From the NCBI GenBank assembly GCA_020354945.1, contig CP070655.1, positions 378,987 to 398,888 of the forward strand: DNA of 19,902 nt. Direction: 5' to 3'. Made by a program: the position numbers and the translations under genes. Source of the stretch: Candidatus Omnitrophota bacterium (GTDB lineage: Bacteria; Omnitrophota; Gorgyraeia; JABMRG01; JAFGKX01). The notes under the pieces were generated by a model. It had not been told where the DNA came from. It saw only the letters and a program-made list of their open reading frames with translations, and ran no database searches. Below, piece by piece: positions 11,925 to 19,902 of this stretch. Position 1 is the first letter of the stretch. The number at the start of each line of letters is the position of its first letter.

Positions 11925-14768
11925 TTAATTCGATTGATTAGAATGTTCCTTCGGAAAAACTCCCTCTAACCAACGCCAAAACCGCTTCATCTCTTCTTCT
12001 CTGACATCTTTGCGCGTCTGATATAAATTAATATACTCTTGCTTTACTTGATTGGCTTTTACCTTATTACCCGTAAGATACAACAAATACATACGTAACT
12101 GAAAAATTTGAGGATCTTTTACTAAGCTAGTTGCAATAGAATAATGATGCTCTGCCAGAAGATAGTTGTGTTGTTTAATAGCGCGAGCCGCTAAATGTAC
12201 ATGCTCATATGCACCTAACTCATTAATATCCCTTCGTGTAGCTATCGCTTCAGCAACAATACGTTGCGCGTACTCATCGCTGCCTACCGCCCATAAAATA
12301 TAGCTCTCCATTTCAGGGTTACGAAGACAAAAGTGTAACTTCTTATAGGGATTAATTCCTCTTAAGATTGACAATGCGTTAAAATTAATCGGGAAAAATT
12401 TTGCTGTTTCGTCAAAAAACTTTTCAGGCCAGAAACTCTTAATTTGAGTGCTATTCAAAAAGTTTTTTTGAGCAAAGTTAGGGTGCATGAATTCCAAATA
12501 AACAGGAGTTATTTTCCCTCTTGAAGGTGACCTATGCGATATGCGCAAAGGATAATTATCTACTAAGGGGGGAATTTGAGAAATCCATTCCAATATTCTC
12601 ACTCTATCAGCAATGAAAAGGGCACCAAACTCTTGAGGATTCCTAAAGCCGAGTGACTTCATTTCCGATCCAATGACCGGATCGTTCCATGGACGAACAA
12701 ACTCTTTTGTTGATACAGACTTCTGCGGCTCTTTAATACCGACTACCATCCAATCAAATAAAGTTCCTGCCCATAGTGAACAATTATTAAAAACATTGCA
12801 GAATCCCTGCAGAATCGCTTTCGCTTCTGAAGGCTCGAGTTCTTCTACCGGCAACCAATAGGTTACCATTCCACCGTCAGCTAAGCGATCATAAATTAAT
12901 TGGAAATACTCCCGAGTATAGAGATTTACCACTCCATTATTTTTTGGCGGAGGTGGTTCAGCAGTAATTAAGTCGTACCTACGATTCCTCGTCAAAAGAA
13001 AAAAGCGACCATCTTCAACGTAAACCCTTACCCGACGGTCATAAAGAGGGTCTTCCTTGGGATGAGGAAAAACAATACTGCTCATTTCGAAAATATCTTT
13101 TGAAGTGTCAACAACGTCAAGTGATTCCAATTGTTCTAGACTTACTAACGCTTTCGCTGTATTCCCACATCCGTATCCAATCAAAAGCGCATTTTTGAGT
13201 TCCGGATGGAGAACCATAGGCCAATAAGCAAATAAATTCATATATCGTTTAGCAGACAAATTAGTTGCAGACATGCCATGGCTATTTGTTATCAAACGGT
13301 AATAATGTGGTTTGTCAAAAAGACCAACTCGAATATATTGAATCGTTTCATTTATTCCTTCACGGGATGCAACTACCTGTTTGTTTATCGGGTCAAAAGG
13401 ATTCAGGGCAATAGCGCTCGGTAAAAATGTTTCTTTCATTAAACCAAAAGGAAACGCAGCAAGCGAAACGAAAAAGACCGATATCATCACGGCATGAGCT
13501 ACAACACTAAGTCTGTTGTATCGATGAGCAAAGATAACAAATAAGATAATACTTCCGTATAAAGTTGCAAATAAGAAAAATGAACCTTCGATGCCTAACA
13601 ATGGGATACATAACAAACCTGTGATGAGCGAACCACACGCTGCTCCTATTGTGTTTGCCATTGTCAAGAAACCACTCGACATTGTTTCGACCCCCATCCG
13701 ATCATGTAGGAACCTACCAAGCATGGTAAAAATAATGCCGGACATAAAAGAAATCGGGAACATTAAATAAAAAGAACATAACCCTTCTCCAAAATCTTTA
13801 ATATATCTTTGAGCAAACGCGAATACAGAATCAAAGCTGGGGTATAATATACATATCAATATACCATTTATAGCCAGCACGAAAATAAGGAAATGATGCG
13901 CATTCATTTTTATTTTGAACAAATGAGAAGCAAATAATCCGCCACTACTTATCCCTATCAAAACGACGCCGAGCATAATTGCAAAAAGTAAACTGGAACT
14001 TGGGTAAAATAATAACATAAATCGAAACCATACTACTTCTAAAGATAGCAATATAAATCCTGAAAGAAAACTTGCGATCAGGAAACGAATTGTTCTGAAA
14101 GAAAAATATGATTGCCGTAACTGTAAGGGAATTTTTTGCATTTCATGTTTCCCATTTATTGCTTTTTGTGAAATTATCAAGGCTATGACAACAGAAGTAA
14201 TATTGAGCATGGCTGCTAAAAGACCGGCCCCTCGAATACCCAAATGTATAATAAATAGAAATTCATTTGCAAAAACACCAAATACTGCTCCAAAAGTATT
14301 CCAACCATATAGCATTCCTAATACATTTCCAAAATTTTGTCTCCTCCTATTCAATGCCCTGACTAATATTGGAAGTGTAGCTCCCATCGCAGTAGTAGGA
14401 ACTAGCATAAGCCCTATCGCAAATATTGCACGTAGAAAATTAAGTGTGGCGGTTTTATCGACAAAGAAGCTGAATATCGGAGCAAAAAATCTTGTAAAAT
14501 GAGGAAAAAGAAGAACTATCGCATACCCTGAAACTGCGATAATACCTTCCAGCAAGGCATAAAATCTGATAGGAAATCTTATGCGATGACCAAAAAAAGT
14601 GACCAGAGCGCTCCCAAGAGCCAATCCCCCCATGAAGCTTGCCAAAACAATAGAAATAGCATGAACACCGCTTCCGAAAGTAAGTCCTGCGAGCCTAAAA
14701 AAAAGGGATTCGAAAATCAACGCTGAGGTACCAGACAAAAAGAAAATAATGCATACAGCTACTATCAT
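11925..14768 (-). CDS. Fused MFS-like membrane / spermidine synthase-like protein
   Basis: Many transmembrane segments with FMGGLALG, MGATLP and LYGWNTFGA, then a synthase domain with LLIGYGCGNT, EDGRFFL, YDLITAEPPPP and NLYTREYF. Confidence 0.88.
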   Translation of the reverse strand: MIVAVCIIFFLSGTSALIFESLFFRLAGLTFGSGVHAISIVLASFMGGLALGSALVTFFGHRIRFPIRFYALLEGIIAVSGYAIVLLFPHFTRFFAPIFSFFVDKTATLNFLRAIFAIGLMLVPTTAMGATLPILVRALNRRRQNFGNVLGMLYGWNTFGAVFGVFANEFLFIIHLGIRGAGLLAAMLNITSVVIALIISQKAINGKHEMQKIPLQLRQSYFSFRTIRFLIASFLSGFILLSLEVVWFRFMLLFYPSSSLLFAIMLGVVLIGISSGGLFASHLFKIKMNAHHFLIFVLAINGILICILYPSFDSVFAFAQRYIKDFGEGLCSFYLMFPISFMSGIIFTMLGRFLHDRMGVETMSSGFLTMANTIGAACGSLITGLLCIPLLGIEGSFFLFATLYGSIILFVIFAHRYNRLSVVAHAVMISVFFVSLAAFPFGLMKETFLPSAIALNPFDPINKQVVASREGINETIQYIRVGLFDKPHYYRLITNSHGMSATNLSAKRYMNLFAYWPMVLHPELKNALLIGYGCGNTAKALVSLEQLESLDVVDTSKDIFEMSSIVFPHPKEDPLYDRRVRVYVEDGRFFLLTRNRRYDLITAEPPPPKNNGVVNLYTREYFQLIYDRLADGGMVTYWLPVEELEPSEAKAILQGFCNVFNNCSLWAGTLFDWMVVGIKEPQKSVSTKEFVRPWNDPVIGSEMKSLGFRNPQEFGALFIADRVRILEWISQIPPLVDNYPLRISHRSPSRGKITPVYLEFMHPNFAQKNFLNSTQIKSFWPEKFFDETAKFFPINFNALSILRGINPYKKLHFCLRNPEMESYILWAVGSDEYAQRIVAEAIATRRDINELGAYEHVHLAARAIKQHNYLLAEHHYSIATSLVKDPQIFQLRMYLLYLTGNKVKANQVKQEYINLYQTRKDVREEEMKRFWRWLEGVFPKEHSNQSN

Positions 14769-14838
14769 TATCAGCCTCTATTAAATTCTGAAAACATATT
14801 ATAATCGAAAAAATAGATCAACAGAGGATTTATGTAAT

Positions 14839-14991
14839 TCATGTAGAGCGCACGTCCCCTTCTAAAAAAAGTCCTAAAAGCGCCTCGCTATCGCGGTCGT
14901 TCATTTGGCAGCCGAAGGTACGCAAAAGTACACGTAGCTTCTTTTTGCCTTTTTGGGCTTCTTCTCCCCGATTTTCTCCTGTTTCAGCCAT
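14839..14991 (-). pseudogene. miaB: Truncated 5' fragment of a second, divergent miaB (50 aa)
   Basis: Manual translation MAETGENRGEEAQKGKKKLRVLLRTFGCQMNDRDSEALLGLFLEGDVRST* contains the MiaB N-terminal TFGCQMNxxDSE motif; GAGGGG RBS upstream. Confidence 0.85.
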
Positions 14992-15106
14992 TTTAACCCC
15001 TCTTCATAACATAACTTCCAATTTGACATAGTCAAGATTTTGAGATTTTGTTTTATGCTTCATGTTAAAAGTAATTACGGAATCACCATATTATATTATT
15101 GTTAAA

Positions 15107-15209
15107 TGGCGGAGAGGCAAGGATTCGTTTATGCGTAATTCCCTAACTCACCGTCGGATAACATGTTATAACACAACTCCTTATTTGTAAAGGAATTAGC
15201 GATTCCATA
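15107..15209 (-). mobile_element. att-like site: tRNA-Ser 3'-end fragment plus flank (direct repeat copy 1)
   Basis: Reverse complement of 15107-15127 is CGAATCCTTGCCTCTCCGCCA (T-arm 3' side, acceptor strand, G discriminator, CCA). The rest of the tRNA is absent. Repeated at 16988-17090. Confidence 0.8.
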
Positions 15210-15291
15210 GAGTTTCGTCCTTTTTCAGAGTTTCGTCCTTTTTCGTCTGTTTTCGTCTAGTTTCGCTTTAGATGGTCCCAGAATAGTCCCA
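15209..15291. repeat. Short direct repeats next to the att-like site
   Basis: AGAGTTTCGTCCTTTTTC x2, TTTCGTC at 10-bp spacing, then GTCCCA x2. Confidence 0.7.
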
Positions 15292-15302
15292 AGAAACCCT
15301 AC

Positions 15303-16082
15303 CTAAACATTTTCTTTACTTTGAGGCGTGTATGCCTTAGGTACAAGGTACCACCATCTCATTCTTTCAGGTCGCCTTTCGTTTATCAAATTAACCAGAT
15401 ATCGCTTGAATACTAACTGAATTATCCATGGAATTCGAAACGGGTAATCAGAAAGTACTCTATCTCTTTGGATAATCTCAGTGATATTATGAGATTCTGA
15501 AAAACGGGATTTGATTACTCTCCCTATGTCTCTAAATACATAATCGTGTAATTCCACAAGTATAAAACAATTACGTAGCGGCGGTACAAGTGATGGGTTT
15601 AAAAGCTCTTTTTCTGCGCCTTCTGCATCTATAATTATGCAACTATCCGAAGTACATTCTTTCATTGTTGCTTGTAATGTAGGAATATTACAGCATCCTT
15701 TGAACGAGATCTGATTTTGACAATGGTTTATATGTGCATTATAAAAAATTAGCGGACTCTTTTCCGCCGTTTCAAAAGCAACTATTTTGGTACTTGGAAT
15801 ACTTCTTGCCAATCCAACTGTATAATAACCGCTTCCGGCACCTATATTGATAATTAATTGAAATTTATTTTTTACAATCCTTTTAACAATATCTTGTAAC
15901 TCTAATTCGTATGTCCCGAGAAGGTATTTACTAACCTTATAAGCATACTTCATCCCTTTGAATGGCCCGCCTCTGACTACATATAGACGATTGTTAGAAG
16001 TTGACAAAAAAATCTTGTTTTCCAATTTCTTTTCTACTATTTGACAGAGTTTTTGATATATCTTATAAAGAAGGTTTTTCAT
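15303..16082 (-). CDS. SAM-dependent methyltransferase, FkbM-like
   Basis: LLGTYELEL, INIGAGSGYY, IDAEGAEKELL and LVELHD motifs. Confidence 0.75.
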   Translation of the reverse strand: MKNLLYKIYQKLCQIVEKKLENKIFLSTSNNRLYVVRGGPFKGMKYAYKVSKYLLGTYELELQDIVKRIVKNKFQLIINIGAGSGYYTVGLARSIPSTKIVAFETAEKSPLIFYNAHINHCQNQISFKGCCNIPTLQATMKECTSDSCIIIDAEGAEKELLNPSLVPPLRNCFILVELHDYVFRDIGRVIKSRFSESHNITEIIQRDRVLSDYPFRIPWIIQLVFKRYLVNLINERRPERMRWWYLVPKAYTPQSKENV

Positions 16083-16170
16083 TCGATTTTTTTATCTTGC
16101 TTATATGGCCTGTTTTGGATAAATAATAGGGGCAAATTTGACAGATAAAATATTTTTAATGCTATCTATT

Positions 16171-16812
16171 TCATGTTGCGTTTTGGCTTGTTTGTGTATT
16201 TTTAGGTTGGCATCCTTGATACCAGCACTCTTGTTCGGGAATTTGAAAAATCTTCATAGACTCTTTCTTTTTGCCTATTATCCATATAAGTGAATCAGCT
16301 GCATCATTAGGATGTTTTAGTGGAACACCATCGTTAGAACTATATCTTTCATATTGAATTTTAAACTTATTTAATTTAAACGATTGTATTATTAGCTCAG
16401 GACTAAAAGTATGTAAGCCGTGATTAAAATAACCTTTAACTGGAGTATGTAAAAAATAAAATCCATTGGGCTTGAGCATTCTCATGCAATTATCAAGGCA
16501 TTGTTTGGTATCAAACACATGTTCTAAAGAACCTATGTCAAAGACTGTATTATATTTTTCATATTCGTCTTCAGGGATTGGGAGGTTTAAATCATGTTTT
16601 AAATCAGCTCTACTGTCAAATTTGTCTATCACAGTAATATTTTTTATTCCTTTTGAAATTAACAATTGCTTAAAATCTTTATAGCTAAAATCTTTGGGCA
16701 GATTGTCTCCAGAAATTGCTTGATACCCAACCATTAAGAAAGGCTCTGATATAACATTGGGTAATTTAAAAATTTCGCGATAAAAAAATATGTGTCTTTT
16801 TAAAATGGCCAT
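16171..16812 (-). CDS. Methyltransferase-like protein
   Basis: DLNLPIP, DIGSLEHVFD, MLKPNG and HGLHTFSP resemble class I methyltransferases seen in glycan loci. Confidence 0.7.
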   Translation of the reverse strand: MAILKRHIFFYREIFKLPNVISEPFLMVGYQAISGDNLPKDFSYKDFKQLLISKGIKNITVIDKFDSRADLKHDLNLPIPEDEYEKYNTVFDIGSLEHVFDTKQCLDNCMRMLKPNGFYFLHTPVKGYFNHGLHTFSPELIIQSFKLNKFKIQYERYSSNDGVPLKHPNDAADSLIWIIGKKKESMKIFQIPEQECWYQGCQPKNTQTSQNAT

Positions 16813-16850
16813 TTAATTCTCTTTTTCATTCTAAAATTTATATTTGCAAT

Positions 16851-16918
16851 ACTATATCTTATTAATTCATCCAAGGTAATATTTAACGACTTAGCAACCT
16901 TTCCATGGTTTGAATGGA
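16851..16918 (-). pseudogene. C-terminal remnant of an XRE-family HTH regulator (frameshifted)
   Basis: Reads SIQTM, then a 1-nt shift, then KVAKSLNITLDELIR, which resembles the end of an HTH_3 domain. Confidence 0.6.
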
Positions 16919-16987
16919 AATAACATTTGGAGATAATGGCGGTGCCGAAGCTACCTTCCATTCTTGTCGAAAGCCCCCTATCAAAAC

Positions 16988-17090
16988 TGGCGGAGAGGCA
17001 GGGATTCGTTTATGCGTAATTCCCTAACTCACCGTCGGATAATATGTTATAACACAACTCTTTATTTGTCAATGGATTAACGATCCTATA
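16988..17090 (-). mobile_element. att-like site: tRNA-Ser 3'-end fragment plus flank (direct repeat copy 2)
   Basis: Reverse complement of 16988-17008 is CGAATCCCTGCCTCTCCGCCA; 9 mismatches to copy 1 over 103 bp by hand count. Confidence 0.8.
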
Positions 17091-17118
17091 CAGTATACAA
17101 CTTTATACAAAATCCACA

Positions 17119-17286
17119 ATGTATATCGTATCATTCATAGAAGAGAAAGACATAATTAATAGGGCACTCTCCCACCGTAGTGAGCTTGAAGAGCGCACCC
17201 ATTCTCCACCGAAAGAAGAAGCTCAAGCTGTAGAGCATACCTATGAGCCCTGCTATGAGGATATATCTGTTAGCAAGATAGTTTGA
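17119..17286 (+). pseudogene. Possible IS91-family transposase C-terminal remnant (55 aa)
   Basis: MYIVSFIEEKDIINRALSHRSELEERTHSPP...TYEPCYED resembles the M(R/K)IIAFIE...I.KIL.HLG...PP tail of IS91-like transposases. Recognised by eye only. Confidence 0.45.
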
Positions 17287-17381
17287 TCTCGACATGGAGA
17301 GACAGGTTTAAGTTCAGACTTGGGACAGGTTGAACGGGAAATCGCAAACGTTACAAAACTATCCAGTTTTAGGAGGTCACG

Positions 17382-18539
17382 TCAATAAAAATCCCAGGCA
17401 TCTTTATACTCCCTATGCCAATTCGCAATAAAGCGCGGTGTTTGGAGTAAAGGAAGCTGATCAAATATTGCATATTCACCTGTATTTACATGGTAATCTT
17501 TATTCGCAATATCATCCATATAGCCTCTCAATCTATATATGTAGGATGAAAATGTTGAATAATCCTGGCCTATGAATATTACGGCTCTTGTACAGATCAA
17601 CTGTTCTATCATAGGTATTAGTTTAGAATTGACCTTTTTATCGCTGCTCAAGTCATCATAATAATAAACGTCATATTTGTCTTCCAGGGGTTTAAAGAAA
17701 TCCTTTTCTTTATGATCTGTTGCTATGTATAACTTGGATCCGGCCGGGACTCTCTTGTCTATGTTCTTGACAATATCTTCACAAGGTATCCTTACGTGCT
17801 TGTATTGGAAATCGTTACCCCTGACATGGATGGCGTAATAATCTTTATCTCCTAACTGATGGATGAACTCCCAAGCTAAATCAAAAATTTCAACCCTATA
17901 ATGAATATGTCTGGCAACATATTTTTTAACCTGCTGCATCTTAGAGCTATAAACAACTTGATAGAAATTACCTAACAAATTCTTGTTGAAGAATATTACA
18001 TGTTTAGAATCATCAACAATTTCCTTCCAATGAACTAATCTTTTCCATTTGGTAAATCTTTTTGGAGGGGTTATCTTTTCAAAGTTCAACGATACGTCTG
18101 TTGTGTCTGCATTTCCTTTGTTACTGTCTCCAATCTCAGTTGCTTCATATTTATGCTCCACGGCATCCCAGGATCTTTTTATCCCTTCCATATCGCAGAA
18201 CTCTTCAAAACTTATACTCTCAATACCTATATCATCAAGATCAAAGAAGTCGGATAAGTTGCTATCGCCTTCTAATCGATACATGTGATAAGTTGGAGGT
18301 AATACCAGGATTCTGTTTTTTAGATAGGCAAAAACTGCGGCCAATTCTAACGACATTCGTATGTTATTGAAACCTCCGGTCACCCGCCCCGTCCTCTTCG
18401 GGAGTCCCTGCCATGGCCTGAACACTAAAAAGCCGGCGGTTCCATCATAAAATTTAAACAAATTGTCAAAATCATATTTTAACCAATAAAAGTAATCTTT
18501 TCGATATCCTGATGAGTTTGTTGATAATTCTCTTCCCAC
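17382..18539 (-). CDS. O-fucosyltransferase family glycosyltransferase (GT-B fold, POFUT-like)
   Basis: GGFNNIRM, RILVLPP, YYAIHVRGNDF, LYIATD and EQLICTRAVIFIG..STFS motifs. GTG start is uncertain. Confidence 0.82.
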   Translation of the reverse strand: MGRELSTNSSGYRKDYFYWLKYDFDNLFKFYDGTAGFLVFRPWQGLPKRTGRVTGGFNNIRMSLELAAVFAYLKNRILVLPPTYHMYRLEGDSNLSDFFDLDDIGIESISFEEFCDMEGIKRSWDAVEHKYEATEIGDSNKGNADTTDVSLNFEKITPPKRFTKWKRLVHWKEIVDDSKHVIFFNKNLLGNFYQVVYSSKMQQVKKYVARHIHYRVEIFDLAWEFIHQLGDKDYYAIHVRGNDFQYKHVRIPCEDIVKNIDKRVPAGSKLYIATDHKEKDFFKPLEDKYDVYYYDDLSSDKKVNSKLIPMIEQLICTRAVIFIGQDYSTFSSYIYRLRGYMDDIANKDYHVNTGEYAIFDQLPLLQTPRFIANWHREYKDAWDFY

Positions 18540-18680
18540 TTACGTTTTTCCTGTCTGATTATATAATCTGTTTTCTAATACCTGCACAGTTTCCTTTCTG
18601 CACCAATTCAACGAATTGGTACAGAAAGGTTGATAATCTATGTTGAATGTTGGTGCTGCTGCCAAGGTCGTTTGCTTCGT

Positions 18681-18818
18681 TCATCCCGTTGTAGGCTTTT
18701 TTACCACACCTTGTTCGATTTTGGTTATTGCATTATAAAATAAGCCGGCTTTCTCAGACAATTTCTGCTGAGACCAGCCGGCTTTTTTTCTTAATTCCTT
18801 GACTCTCTTAGCTAATAT
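18681..18818 (-). pseudogene. N-terminal remnant of an XRE-family HTH regulator
   Basis: (ATA)LAKRVKELRKKAGWSQQKLSEKAGLFYNAITKIEQGVVKKPTTG*; the start codon is ATA and the last two helices are missing. Confidence 0.8.
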
Positions 18819-18864
18819 TTTATTCTTGACATATATACTACATCGGTATAGCTAAAATTGATCT

Positions 18865-18972
18865 TTAACTAGGGGCGGAGCCCATAAACACTGTTTTTAT
18901 CTTCCCCCTAGAAGACACCTTGGGTTTTTGGTAGCCACCCTTTTTTTTAGGTTTGCGGCTTTTTTTGTTCGT
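18865..18972 (-). CDS. Putative RiPP precursor-like peptide, 35 aa, ACG start (possibly inactivated)
   Basis: (M)NKKSRKPKKKGGYQKPKVSSRGKIKTVFMGSAPS* follows an AGGAGGTGA RBS directly after the RRE gene and has a YxxPxV leader motif. Confidence 0.65.
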   Translation of the reverse strand, partial: TNKKSRKPKKKGGYQKPKVSSRGKIKTVFMGSAPS

Positions 18973-18975
18973 TCC

Positions 18976-19071
18976 CCTTCACCTCCTTTTGTCATACTAA
19001 TAAGTTTATTAGTTAAGAGTTCCTTCACCTCCTTTTGTCATACTAATAAGTTTATTAGTTAAGAGTTCCTT
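18976..19071. repeat. Exact 46-bp tandem duplication
   Basis: CCTTCACCTCCTTTTGTCATACTAATAAGTTTATTAGTTAAGAGTT at 18976-19021 and 19022-19067, followed by CCTT. Confidence 0.95.
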
Positions 19072-19305
19072 AACGAAAATTATAAGATCCTCTTCTATAA
19101 CTTTATTATCTATGCCGTATTCCTTGTTCATGGTGCTTATTATGAACTTAAGGTCTTTTTTCCTAGCCATTAACTCCAATATTTCGGTACCGGTTCCATT
19201 CAGGCTGTAATGCTCCCCATCATTCAAATTAAGCACCATAGCCTCACCGTCGATCACCCTATAGGCAATATCTTCGCTCAACTCATAGGTATTGCTCAAA
19301 TTCAT
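19009..19305 (-). CDS. PqqD family protein / stand-alone RiPP recognition element (lasso B1-like)
   Basis: VIDGEAMVLNLNDGEHYSLNGTGTEILELM...EYGID...EEDLIIFVKELLTNKLI matches the PqqD/RRE pattern. Confidence 0.9.
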   Translation of the reverse strand: MNLSNTYELSEDIAYRVIDGEAMVLNLNDGEHYSLNGTGTEILELMARKKDLKFIISTMNKEYGIDNKVIEEDLIIFVKELLTNKLISMTKGGEGTLN

Positions 19306-19322
19306 GTCTTCTCCGGATTTAA

Positions 19323-19351
19323 ATTATATCACATGCGAGTATGCCTGTCAA
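19323..19351 (-). promoter_or_regulatory. Consensus sigma70 promoter for the RRE and peptide genes
   Basis: Minus strand TTGACA-17 bp-TATAAT with a TGn extension; GGAG RBS before ATG 19305. Confidence 0.88.
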
Positions 19352-19500
19352 ATCAGTTAGCAATCCTTTCGAATCGGCTCACATTAGATGTTGTCCAAAA
19401 TAAATTTTAAGGGTTTTTAAGTGTCACTGTACACTATCCGCTTCGGCTCTATTGTGCATAGGTTTATAATATGTTAAAAAAATAGAATGCCCCCTCATTT

Positions 19501-19902
19501 TTACTTACATAATCTTTGGGTAATAGGTTTAGATATTTTTGCTACTTTCTTTAGAATAGAAAGCATGTTATCGTTGTAAAAATATAGAAATGCGGCTATT
19601 ACGCTATATAAATCTTTTACTGATGTCGGCAGGGATTTTAAAAATTTTTTATAATTCGCCAACTGCATAATGATCTCTCTTATGATAAATATTTTAATAG
19701 GGTCCTCGTCTTTTATCTTATAACATATATATATAAATAAATTGACAAGGAAACTCCGTCTCATTTTTTGCATAACGACCTCTGGAATATCGGCAATTAT
19801 GATTTTTCGTGCTAAAAATAAGAGTGTGAATATCTTAAACTCATTCCCTGTCACATGTGCCCAGTGTAATAAGTTATCCCAGTTAATCTTATCACCGTAA
19901 TA
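19501..19902 (-). CDS. C-terminal part of a probable nucleotidyltransferase family protein (NTP_transf_5-like); start outside the window
   Basis: The frame is open to the window edge. YYGDKINWDNLLHWAHVTG...LFLARKIIIADIP resembles the (I/L)DW helical C-terminus of this family, and it sits next to an RRE gene. Confidence 0.5.
   Translation of the reverse strand, partial: YYGDKINWDNLLHWAHVTGNEFKIFTLLFLARKIIIADIPEVVMQKMRRSFLVNLFIYICYKIKDEDPIKIFIIREIIMQLANYKKFLKSLPTSVKDLYSVIAAFLYFYNDNMLSILKKVAKISKPITQRLCK

What the first reader, a model, noticed from the sequence alone, without database searches (positions are those of the whole stretch)
18865..19902. RRE plus hidden lasso-leader peptide with only a 5-residue core, next to a nucleotidyltransferase: candidate non-lasso RiPP-like system
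Seen: an ORF missed by the track follows a PqqD/RRE gene and a strong RBS. YQKPKVSSRGKIKTVFM|GSAPS keeps lasso leader spacing (Y-17, P-14, hydrophobic -12, G-8, G+1) but has Phe instead of Thr at -2. The core has no Asp/Glu and is too short for a macrolactam. Established: in paeninodin and pseudomycoidin clusters a C-terminal Ser is phosphorylated, and in pseudomycoidin it is glycosylated in a nucleotidyltransferase-dependent way. Inference: lasso recognition parts may be repurposed to modify a minimal Ser-ended peptide, or the peptide may act as an RRE ligand or regulator. No cyclase or peptidase is visible in this window.
Basis: partly seen in the sequence, partly recalled or inferred. Interest (0 to 1): 0.8.

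Follow-up and report, generated by a model that had tools for sequence, protein, structure and literature searches.

The report
Short lasso-type leader peptide beside RRE
Next to a small peptide-binding chaperone gene lies a tiny open frame that looks like the front half of a lasso-peptide precursor with almost no back half, and similar stub peptides are conserved in related uncultured bacteria, pointing to a little-studied way of decorating very short peptides.

Summary
The only candidate start is ACG, 9 nt after GGAGG, and that Shine-Dalgarno lies in an exact 46-nt tandem duplication of the PqqD 3' end.

The window is one whole MAG contig, so nothing real lies beyond 19902. PqqD is a lasso-B1-like RRE. 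The 133-codon fragment is the C-terminal third of a PF14907 nucleotidyltransferase.

Short Lys-rich peptides with the same [YW]x[KR]PxL leader sit beside PqqD homologues in genomes of the same class (Omnitrophota by record titles). Eleven of 19 aligned peptides, the window's included, have 5 or fewer residues past the leader. One subgroup shows coding-type conservation. Neighbours are GT2 (often fused to PqqD), PF14907, GNAT, rSAM/SPASM and ABC-2 genes. Lasso B2 and cyclase appear in 1 of 16 loci, so "lasso leader plus stub" is a real non-lasso family.

The window's copy is a weak member. A profile built without it gives 7.4 bits (E 6.5), or 17.2 bits without composition correction. It lacks Thr(-2) and ATG, and sits by a truncated XRE fragment.

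Best reading: a genuine RRE-plus-short-precursor unit of this family, alive or recently inactivated. Co-folding never ran; no reads cover the key stretch.

The parts
19501..19902 (-). 3' 133 codons of a PF14907 (NTP_transf_5) nucleotidyltransferase gene; the 5' two thirds are cut off by the contig end
   Evidence: Open to the contig end. phmmer found 27 proteins at E<=0.001. 20 of 22 scanned carry PF14907, with the fragment aligned to their C-terminal ~120 residues. No direct Pfam or NCBIfam hit.
19323..19351 (-). sigma-70-like promoter: TTGACA, 17 nt, TATAAT, with TG before the -10
   Evidence: 12 of 12 consensus matches. It is the best of 12 sites in 18400-19902; shuffles give a mean of 6.1 sites.
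19009..19305 (-). stand-alone PqqD-family RiPP recognition element (98 aa), lasso-B1-like
   Evidence: PF05402, E 1.2e-12. NF033536 lasso_PqqD_Bac scores 48.4 bits, below its cut-off of 80. A subfamily profile hits TbiB1 (5v1u) at 8.3e-13. It is 41% identical to the PqqD at L087:9317-9595 and is the only PqqD in the MAG.
18976..19067 (.). exact tandem duplication, 2 x 46 nt, spanning the PqqD 3' end and the Shine-Dalgarno of the peptide frame
   Evidence: Both copies are 100% identical. 46 = 3n+1, so it shifts the PqqD frame to a stop. Without it PqqD would be about 120 aa, whereas homologues are 88-93 aa. No reads or contigs cover it.
18979..18989 (-). Shine-Dalgarno-like AAAGGAGGTGA
   Evidence: Read directly. 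It aligns with the SD before the ATG of a relative's peptide gene.
18865..18972 (-). candidate precursor peptide frame: ACG plus 34 codons plus TAA. Lys-rich N-terminus, YQKPKV motif, 5-residue Gly/Ser/Ala/Pro tail
   Evidence: ACG aligns with the ATG of the peptide gene at L089:3953-4054. Motif statistics. Leave-one-out profile is weak. No NCBIfam or Pfam hit.
18732..18795 (-). strong hairpin followed by a U-rich stretch (terminator-like), about 75 nt after the peptide stop
   Evidence: -28 kcal/mol, z -4.36, 0 of 200 shuffles as stable. The simple terminator scan did not report it.
18681..18845 (-). truncated XRE-type HTH_3 fragment without a start codon
   Evidence: PF01381, E 1.3e-7, profile positions 1-37 of 55. 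The frame opens after a TAG, has no ATG, GTG or TTG before the HTH, and ends early.
17382..18539 (-). glycosyltransferase of the protein O-fucosyltransferase family; a possible tailoring enzyme (inferred from position only)
   Evidence: PF10250, E 1.4e-25. No homologue in the fetched related loci.
15303..16812 (-). two methyltransferase-like genes (16171-16812 and 15303-16082); possible tailoring enzymes (weak, by position only)
   Evidence: Weak Methyltransf_12/11 and FkbM hits below cut-off.

Best explanation
This is a small transcription unit. A strong promoter is followed by a stand-alone lasso-B1-like RRE (PqqD), then a roughly 35-codon peptide frame with its own Shine-Dalgarno, then a terminator-like hairpin. 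It lies directly downstream of a PF14907 nucleotidyltransferase gene.

The peptide belongs to a family of short precursors found beside PqqD homologues in the same bacterial class. These have a Lys/Arg-rich N-terminus, a [YW]x[KR]PxL leader of lasso type, and often only 1-5 further residues containing Ser, Thr or Cys.

Proposed mechanism (inferred, not shown): the RRE binds the YxxPx-hydrophobic motif and presents the short C-terminal tail to tailoring enzymes. Those would be the PF14907 enzyme, whose relative PsmN is needed for glycosylation of a phospho-Ser in pseudomycoidin, and glycosyl- or methyltransferases. No macrolactam is formed.

In this MAG the frame has ACG where relatives have ATG, so the gene may be freshly inactivated, mis-sequenced, or poorly translated. 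Which of these holds cannot be told.
For: - Motif, Shine-Dalgarno and position were read directly.
- The motif is rare. Nine frames in the genome have at least 5 Lys/Arg followed by [YWF]x[KR]Px-hydrophobic. I derive about 0.003 expected in the 664 flanking positions.
- The same filter gives 0.069 hits per kb (9 of 18 loci) and 0.046 per kb (7 of 19 loci) around PqqD homologues, against 0.0036 per kb in the own genome. The two locus sets share two contigs.
- Family: a two-row profile found six more genomes at E 2.6e-10 to 1.3e-5 among 401. A 19-row profile matched 16 of 401, of which 11 had contributed rows.
- Seven peptides over 17 codons differ at codon positions 1/2/3 by 55/44/219, with 180 synonymous against 70 non-synonymous codon differences.
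- Tails of 5 residues or fewer occur in 11 of 19 peptides; Ser, Thr or Cys is in the last 6 residues of 15 of 19.
- Across 16 peptide loci, a PqqD domain is present in 15, PF14907 in 6, and lasso B2 plus cyclase in 1.
- PF13471 is absent from 5 of 5 peptide-bearing genomes and from the own MAG, which is 89% complete.
- NF033521 lasso_leader_L3 weakly hits 6 of 19 peptides.
- The window's ACG-AAC-AAA aligns with ATG-AAT-AAA behind the same GGAGGTGAA in a relative.
- Promoter; hairpin.
Against: - There is no canonical start codon.
- A profile built without the window row scores its frame at 7.4 bits, E 6.5, rank 11 of 29,788 frames. Without composition correction it scores 17.2 bits, E 0.0056, rank 2, and then only the Lys-rich part plus YQKP aligns. 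A motif-only profile gives 3.8 bits.
- The peptide has no NCBIfam or Pfam hit.
- Phe replaces the conserved Thr at -2.
- The Shine-Dalgarno sits in a duplication that could be an assembly artefact.
- A truncated XRE fragment lies next door.
- The MAG lacks homologues of the GT2-PqqD fusions, the S24/GNAT fusions, the ABC-2 permease and the HprK-like proteins of the related clusters (tblastn at 1e-4).
- PqqD has only one close relative in 5.8 billion clusters: 59% identity, on a 524-bp contig. Conservation of this particular peptide therefore cannot be tested.
- No expression or binding data exist.
Confidence: 0.55

Rival explanations
1. It is a remnant of a true lasso cluster. The ancestral order N-B1-B2-C-A lost B2 and the cyclase, and the precursor was truncated to a stub and lost its ATG. 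Nothing is made now.
For: A genome of the same class carries PF14907, PqqD, Transglut_core3, an Asn_synthase cyclase and a precursor in exactly that order, with the same leader type (L110). The window has N-B1-A'. It also has a duplication scar at the B1/A junction, ACG in place of ATG, and a decayed XRE gene.
Against: The window's PqqD is closer to stand-alone PqqDs of non-lasso GT2-PqqD/rSAM clusters (41%, 39% and 37% identity) than to the B1 of L110 (29%). Stub tails are a conserved trait of intact peptide genes in relatives. Thr(-2) is absent. No cyclase or B2 fragment is seen between PqqD and the peptide.
Confidence: 0.12
2. It is chance: an A-rich, Lys-coding stretch left in an alternative frame of the PqqD 3' region happens to spell YxxP with suitable spacing. 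No peptide is made.
For: There is no canonical start. Without the duplication the stretch would be read in another frame as a PqqD tail. The leave-one-out profile with composition correction is not significant. The motif features were chosen after seeing them.
Against: Expected counts of 0.0009 to 0.04 for the motif in the flanking positions. The K/R-rich version is 13- to 19-fold enriched beside PqqD genes. The Shine-Dalgarno and the ACG align with the SD and ATG of a relative's peptide gene. PqqD homologues are 88-93 aa, so the un-duplicated long reading is unlikely to be the native protein.
Confidence: 0.15
3. The peptide is real but is not a substrate. It acts as an RRE ligand, for example a decoy or regulator that occupies the chaperone or tunes glycan-cluster enzymes.
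For: Tails of 1-2 residues in several relatives leave little to modify. In the f25/f10 subgroup the gene always lies antisense between PqqD and a GT2 gene. Many loci are polysaccharide-type (Wza, Wzc, Wzy, GT).
Against: RRE domains fused to GT2 enzymes beside the peptides argue for leader-guided catalysis on the peptide. S24/S26-like peptidase parts and ABC-2 exporters in the clusters fit processing and export. The tails keep Ser, Thr or Cys in 15 of 19 peptides.
Confidence: 0.08

Closest known systems
Lasso peptide leader / B1 (RRE) recognition, e.g. TbiA-TbiB1, TfuB1, paeninodin PadeB1
   Same: A discrete PqqD-family RRE whose best solved relatives are TbiB1 and other lasso PqqD chaperones. 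The leader has Tyr, Pro, a hydrophobic residue and Gly at the positions of the YxxPxL motif, which spans -17 to -12 (PMC10368454 passages). The family peptides weakly hit NCBIfam lasso_leader_L3.
   Different: There is no B2 peptidase and no cyclase in the window. PF13471 is absent from the MAG. The core is 5 residues without Asp or Glu, and Phe replaces Thr at -2. PqqD scores below the NCBIfam lasso cut-off (48.4 against 80).
Paeninodin / pseudomycoidin tailoring set (HPr-kinase homologue K, nucleotidyltransferase N, sulfotransferase)
   Same: An uncharacterised nucleotidyltransferase sits next to the RRE, and the peptide ends in Ser. In those systems the C-terminal Ser is phosphorylated, and in pseudomycoidin it is then glycosylated in an N-dependent way (PMC8498205 and PMC7533575 passages). 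Related loci show a PF14907-sulfotransferase fusion and a PF14907-peptidase fusion. One Firmicute locus has an Hpr_kinase_C-like gene, PF14907, PqqD and a short peptide, with no cyclase among the ORFs I scanned.
   Different: No kinase is seen in the window or the MAG. Whether PsmN itself is PF14907 was not checked here. The substrate would be a stub rather than a lasso core.
RRE-glycosyltransferase (PF00535) fusion clusters flagged by RRE-Finder and by the 2025 RRE survey
   Same: The window's closest PqqD relatives sit in clusters with GT2-PqqD fusions, rSAM/SPASM genes and short peptides. The papers list such fusions as uncharacterised candidate RiPP clusters (passages of PMC7470986 and PMC12710340).
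   Different: The window has no GT2-PqqD fusion. Its downstream glycosyltransferase is of the O-fucosyltransferase family. The papers' supplementary figures could not be read, so overlap with the loci seen here is unknown.
Scaffold-peptide pathways (pearlins) and glycocins
   Same: The idea that a ribosomal peptide serves mainly as a handle, with chemistry on a very short C-terminal part; or that a GT2 enzyme glycosylates Ser or Cys of a ribosomal peptide.
   Different: No aminoacyl-tRNA-dependent ligase and no SunS-type context was seen. This is a resemblance of concept only.

Membership tests
Lasso peptide biosynthetic cluster | Precursor leader with YxxPxL and Thr at -2 | tested here: not met
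   Tyr, Pro, Val and Gly are at the right spacing, but Phe is at -2. Ile or Val at -2 are the only reported exceptions (PMC10368454 abstract and passages).
Lasso peptide biosynthetic cluster | Core long enough to thread, with Asp or Glu at position 7-9 for the macrolactam | tested here: not met
   The core is 5 residues with no acidic residue, followed by TAA.
Lasso peptide biosynthetic cluster | B2 leader peptidase (Transglut_core3, PF13471) | tested here: not met
   0 matches at E<=1 in the 89%-complete MAG. None in the window.
Lasso peptide biosynthetic cluster | Asparagine-synthetase-like cyclase in the cluster | tested here: inconclusive
   None in the window. The MAG has one Asn_synthase fragment on another contig, cut by that contig's end, beside two ORFs whose GT2 parts match GT2 queries. 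The window's contig ends inside the nucleotidyltransferase.
Lasso peptide biosynthetic cluster | Discrete or fused RRE (B1) | tested here: met
   PF05402, E 1.2e-12. The best solved relative is TbiB1.
Short [YW]x[KR]PxL peptides beside PqqD in this class (alignment A4) | Lys/Arg-rich N-terminus followed by an aromatic-x-[KR]-P-x-hydrophobic motif in a frame of 100 codons or fewer | tested here: met
   One of 4 such frames in the genome.
Short [YW]x[KR]PxL peptides beside PqqD in this class (alignment A4) | Significant match to a family profile built without the candidate | tested here: inconclusive
   7.4 bits, E 6.5, with composition correction. 17.2 bits, E 0.0056, rank 2 of 29,788, without it. 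The motif-only model gives 3.8 bits.
Short [YW]x[KR]PxL peptides beside PqqD in this class (alignment A4) | ATG start behind a Shine-Dalgarno | tested here: not met
   A Shine-Dalgarno is present, but ACG stands at the place of ATG. All 18 other rows start with ATG, which was how they were picked.
Short [YW]x[KR]PxL peptides beside PqqD in this class (alignment A4) | Lies within a few kb of a PqqD domain gene | tested here: met
   36 nt separate the PqqD stop (19009) from the ACG (18972). 15 of 16 other loci have a PqqD domain.
PF14907 NTP_transf_5 nucleotidyltransferase | Match to the family, including the catalytic N-terminal part | not testable with these tools
   Only the C-terminal 133 codons are on the contig. 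They give no direct Pfam hit, but 20 of 22 homologues scanned carry PF14907 upstream of the aligned part. No N-terminal piece was found elsewhere in the MAG.
NCBIfam lasso_PqqD_Bac (NF033536) | Score at or above the curated cut-off of 80 bits | tested here: not met
   48.4 bits. It is the best-scoring NCBIfam model but falls below the cut-off.

The most novel reading that the evidence does not exclude
A conserved, undescribed RiPP-like route in which a lasso-derived leader is kept only as a handle for the RRE. The 'core' is a stub of 1-5 residues whose Ser, Thr or Cys is glycosylated or nucleotidylated by RRE-guided GT2 and PF14907 enzymes. It may then be acylated, cut off by S24/S26-like peptidase domains and exported by an ABC-2 pump. 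The product would be a small glycoconjugate built on a ribosomal scaffold peptide, or a peptide-primed glycan. The window would hold a divergent copy of the RRE/peptide/PF14907 module.
Probability: 0.3. Interest if true: 0.85.

Novelty: new variant of a known kind. Interest (0 to 1): 0.62.

Why it matters
Lasso leaders and their RREs are textbook recognition pairs. Finding the same pair conserved without the cyclase and peptidase, and with cores too short to be a peptide natural product in the usual sense, suggests the module has been reused for other chemistry.

The candidate chemistry is leader-guided glycosylation or nucleotidylation of a single residue. The PF14907 family still has no biochemically defined reaction, and these compact clusters would give it a minimal substrate to test with.

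The clusters come from uncultured Omnitrophota, for which I found no RiPP chemistry described in six full-text searches. Supplements were closed.

The window's own copy is an incomplete and possibly dead example. Its value is as the pointer to the family.

Tried and rejected
- **Close relatives of PqqD.** The search for related loci with the single PqqD found no relative in genome contigs or metagenome contigs. An 11-row PqqD alignment was too diverse for the tool. A 4-row alignment worked.
- **Longer relatives of the nucleotidyltransferase fragment.** The search for homologous proteins with 'longer' found none.
- **Sequencing runs.** No RNA holder is listed. The best holders carry 0.25 of the words. 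Their contigs cover 19172-19521, 18556-18801 and 19543-19575 only. Nothing lies across 18802-19171, so the duplication and the ACG stay untested.
- **Complex prediction (PqqD alignment A3 plus the 35-residue frame).** There is no result of any kind.
- **RNA genes.** Rfam gave 0 matches in the window. There are 0 tRNAs.
- **Earlier findings of the scan.** Nothing was found.
- **Weak nucleotidyltransferase hit in the same-genus genome G001:C69.** It has 8 stops and shows no blastn or tblastx similarity to window 14000-19902. I reject it as spurious.
- **PqqD as an un-duplicated ~120-aa protein.** Rejected as the native form, because homologues are 88-93 aa.
- **The 24-codon ORF at 19424-19498(-) between the two genes.** Rejected. 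It has a YYKP but no hydrophobic residue after it and no Lys-rich part, and it lies upstream of the promoter.
- **Regions beyond 19902.** The neighbours there are arbitrary.
- **Composition.** No anomaly: GC is 0.385 at 18-19 kb against 0.389 for the genome.
- **My first motif count.** It used x8 instead of x7 and missed the window's own frame. It was corrected.
Full report
**What the window is.**
The window is exactly one contig of a metagenome-assembled genome. Position 19902 is therefore a contig end. What follows it in the file (an MBL-fold hydrolase, hyp genes and so on) is not its neighbour. The MAG has 1.14 Mb, 38.9% GC and 89% estimated completeness. All genes discussed here are on the - strand.

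**The observation.**
The - strand frame 18978-18868 is open for 37 codons and ends with TAA at 18867-18865 (protein P0001).
- Tyr, Pro, Val, Gly and Gly stand at the lasso positions -17, -14, -12, -8 and +1. Phe stands at -2.
- The tail is a 5-residue Gly/Ser/Ala/Pro stub.

Three things differ from the description.
1. The frame opens right after an in-frame TGA. It has no ATG, GTG or TTG before the GTG that encodes the Val of the motif, so the ORF listing at 20 aa does not list it. The one candidate start is ACG at 18972-18970, 9 nt after GGAGG at 18986-18982.
2. The 'strong RBS' is part of an exact 46-nt tandem duplication (18976-19021 and 19022-19067). The unit is the 3' end of the PqqD gene.
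3. Because 46 = 3n+1, the duplication shifts PqqD to a stop and gives a 98-aa protein. With one copy, PqqD would run on for about 25 more codons, in another frame, through the peptide region.

Homologous PqqDs are 88-93 aa, so the duplicated form has the normal length. Whether the duplication is real could not be tested. The only public contigs that match cover 19172-19521, 18556-18801 and a 33-nt piece.

**The two flanking genes.**
- ORF 19009-19305 is a PqqD-family RRE. PF05402 scores E 1.2e-12. The best NCBIfam model is lasso_PqqD_Bac at 48.4 bits, below its cut-off of 80.
- A profile of the window's PqqD and its three nearest relatives hits TbiB1 (5v1u, 8.3e-13), a 'lasso peptide biosynthesis PqqD family chaperone' (9x90_B) and TfuB1 among solved structures.
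- It is the only PqqD in the MAG.
- The 133-codon open end at 19501-19902 has no direct Pfam or NCBIfam hit, and the word-based search found no longer relative.
- Full HMMER over 1.84 billion representatives gave 27 proteins at E<=0.001. Of the 22 I scanned, 20 carry PF14907 (NTP_transf_5). The fragment aligns to their C-terminal ~120 residues.

**Transcription signals.**
- A 12-of-12 sigma-70 consensus with an extended -10 lies at 19351-19323.
- A hairpin of -28 kcal/mol (z -4.4, 0 of 200 shuffles as stable) followed by a U-rich stretch lies about 75 nt after the peptide stop.
- Together these frame PqqD and the peptide frame as a compact unit.
- The hairpin lies inside a truncated XRE-type HTH_3 fragment that has no start codon. 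The downstream DNA is therefore partly decayed.

**Is the motif chance?**
In the six frames of the own genome (2.25 million codon positions):
- YxxPx[LIVMF]x3Gx7G occurs 3 times;
- YxxPx[LIVMF]x11G occurs 31 times;
- the same with any of G, A, S or C at +1 occurs 127 times.

The expected numbers in the 664 same-strand positions that flank the single PqqD gene are 0.0009, 0.009 and 0.04. An earlier count with a wrong spacing is void.

A second filter asks for at least 5 Lys/Arg in 14 residues followed by [YWF]x[KR]Px-hydrophobic. It finds 9 frames in the genome, of which 4 are frames of 100 codons or fewer. One of those is ribosomal protein S21 by my reading, and one is this frame. These tests are post hoc, but they make pure chance unlikely.

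**Related loci.**
- The window's PqqD has one close relative in the 5.8-billion-cluster collection: 59% identity, on a 524-bp contig. Conservation of this very peptide cannot be tested.
- Among 60 relatives of the same class, 14 have a PqqD match at 23-35% identity.
- I fetched 18 such loci and scanned them for short frames with the aromatic-xxP-x-hydrophobic motif. Many precursor-like ORFs appeared, each with a Lys-rich N-terminus.
- One, between a PqqD and a GT2 gene in G023:C4, has the full lasso pattern YxxPxLx3Gx5Tx followed by only two residues.

Profile searches then widened the set.
- A two-row profile (that peptide plus the window's) over 401 genomes of the class found six more genomes at E 2.6e-10 to 1.3e-5, all in one family.
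- A 19-row profile matched 16 of 401 genomes at E<=0.001. Eleven of them had contributed rows. Of the five new ones I examined four.
- A scan of the species-representative genomes with a 4-row PqqD alignment gave 19 loci. Ten of them carry record titles naming Candidatus Omnitrophota, and one PqqD there is 49% identical to the window's. Seven of these 19 loci hold such peptides. Two of the 19 are the same contigs as loci fetched earlier (L089/L090 = L087; L096 = L033).

**Are these peptides real genes?**
- For the seven peptides of the tight subgroup, 17 codons from the Tyr differ pairwise at codon positions 1/2/3 by 55/44/219.
- Codon differences are 180 synonymous against 70 non-synonymous. 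The two shifted frames put the excess at the other positions. That is the signature of a translated, constrained frame.
- Many family members have a good Shine-Dalgarno before ATG.
- Six of 19 weakly hit NCBIfam NF033521, 'lasso RiPP family leader peptide-containing protein' (best E 0.0037), and 3 hit lasso_cyano.
- From the aromatic residue to the stop there are 18-33 residues (median 21); the window has 22.
- Eleven of 19 peptides have 5 or fewer residues beyond the 17 leader positions. Fifteen of 19 have Ser, Thr or Cys in the last six.
- The 'tiny core' is therefore a family trait and not in itself a sign of decay.

**What surrounds them.**
I looked at the neighbours of 16 peptide-bearing loci by Pfam and by tblastn.
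- A PqqD domain is present in 15 of 16.
- PF14907 is present in 6. It is once fused to a sulfotransferase domain (L081) and once to an S26-type peptidase part (L108).
- GT2 genes occur in most loci. Several are fused to a C-terminal PqqD domain (L087/L089/L090, L033, L108, L109).
- GNAT fusions of 460-530 aa occur in the tight subgroup.
- rSAM/SPASM or B12-rSAM genes occur in seven loci.
- ABC-2 exporters occur in several.
- One Firmicute locus (L105) has PqqD, an Hpr_kinase_C-like gene, PF14907, a short peptide and an ABC exporter.
- Only one locus (L110) is a true lasso cluster: PF14907, PqqD, Transglut_core3, Asn_synthase cyclase, then a precursor with the same leader type and a 20-residue acidic core.
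- PF13471 is absent from 5 of 5 peptide-bearing genomes tested (91-98% complete).
- Other PqqD loci without a detected peptide sit with PF14907 between Wza- and Wzc-type polysaccharide export genes (L036).

**Where the window's copy stands.**
In favour of membership:
- Its PqqD is nearest to the stand-alone PqqDs of the GT2-PqqD/rSAM type clusters (41%, 39% and 37% identity).
- In a DNA alignment, its GGAGGTGAA...ACG-AAC-AAA lines up with GGAGGTGAA...ATG-AAT-AAA of a peptide gene of that type.

Against close membership:
- A profile built without the window's row scores its frame at only 7.4 bits (E 6.5, rank 11 of 29,788 frames) with composition correction.
- Without the correction it scores 17.2 bits (E 0.0056, rank 2), and only the Lys-rich part plus YQKP aligns.
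- A profile of the motif and tail alone gives 3.8 bits.
- The peptide hits no NCBIfam or Pfam model.
- The MAG has no homologue of the GT2-PqqD, S24/GNAT, HprK-like or ABC-2 proteins of the related clusters (tblastn at 1e-4).
- The genes downstream are an O-fucosyltransferase-family glycosyltransferase and two weak methyltransferases. Their link to the peptide is by position only.

**Reading.**
Shown:
- the motif, the Shine-Dalgarno and the missing start codon;
- the duplication;
- the RRE and the PF14907 fragment;
- the existence of a conserved family of short lasso-leader peptides beside PqqD genes without lasso enzymes.

Inferred:
- that the window's frame is, or recently was, a gene of that family;
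- that the RRE binds its YxxP motif;
- that the tail Ser is the site of modification by PF14907 and glycosyltransferases.

Not tested: binding (the co-folding job never got into the queue), expression, and the true base at the ACG.

I put 0.55 on a genuine RRE/short-precursor module (alive or just inactivated), 0.12 on a remnant of a true lasso cluster, 0.15 on chance, and 0.08 on a non-substrate ligand role.

**Literature.**
- Passages of PMC10368454 give the YxxPxL positions and the Ile/Val(-2) exceptions.
- Passages of PMC7470986 and PMC12710340 mention RRE-glycosyltransferase fusions as uncharacterised.
- Six full-text searches found no description of lasso-type leaders with stub cores in cyclase-less clusters. 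One search searched three sequence words of the family anywhere in the text and found 0 papers.

Noticed in passing
window 15104-15213 and 16985-17094: A 110-nt direct repeat (90% identity) lies in the two intergenic gaps that flank the pair of methyltransferase-like genes. It may mark a small inserted cassette or a repeated regulatory element.
   Followed up: no
window 18681-18845 (-): An XRE-type HTH_3 fragment with no start codon, covering only profile positions 1-37 of 55. The strong terminator-like hairpin lies inside it.
   Followed up: partly
G000:C1:615091-618563 (another contig of the same MAG): The N-terminal 178 codons of an rSAM gene are cut by the contig start. It is 35-36% identical to the cluster rSAM/SPASM proteins of relatives. 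It is preceded by what look, by eye, like a carbamoyltransferase and a PMT-type glycosyltransferase. Its orientation would allow it to join the window's open end at 19902.
   Followed up: partly
L110 (G334:C2:17000-28000): A complete lasso cluster in the same class: PF14907, PqqD, Transglut_core3, an Asn_synthase-type cyclase, and a precursor with the same leader type as the stub peptides. A GT1 and a carbamoyltransferase follow.
   Followed up: partly
L108:2-1702 and L081:5350-7308: PF14907 occurs fused to an S26-type peptidase part (567 aa) and to a sulfotransferase domain (653 aa). This echoes the nucleotidyltransferase-B2 fusions and the sulfotransferases reported for Firmicute lasso clusters (PMC8498205 passage).
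   Followed up: no
L038, L081-L086 (subgroup of families f25 and f10): In all seven loci the stub-peptide gene lies on the strand opposite to the PqqD, GT2 and GNAT genes. In some it sits in the gap between PqqD and a GT2 gene.
   Followed up: partly
L036 (G023:C2:59700-73900): A PqqD at the edge of the NCBIfam lasso cut-off (79.3 of 80 bits) sits with two PF14907 genes between duplicated Wza- and Wzc-type polysaccharide export genes. My motif scan found no peptide there.
   Followed up: no
window 11925-14768 (-): A 947-aa protein with a spermidine-synthase-like domain in its middle and a weak match to the fused MFS/spermidine synthase family.
   Followed up: no
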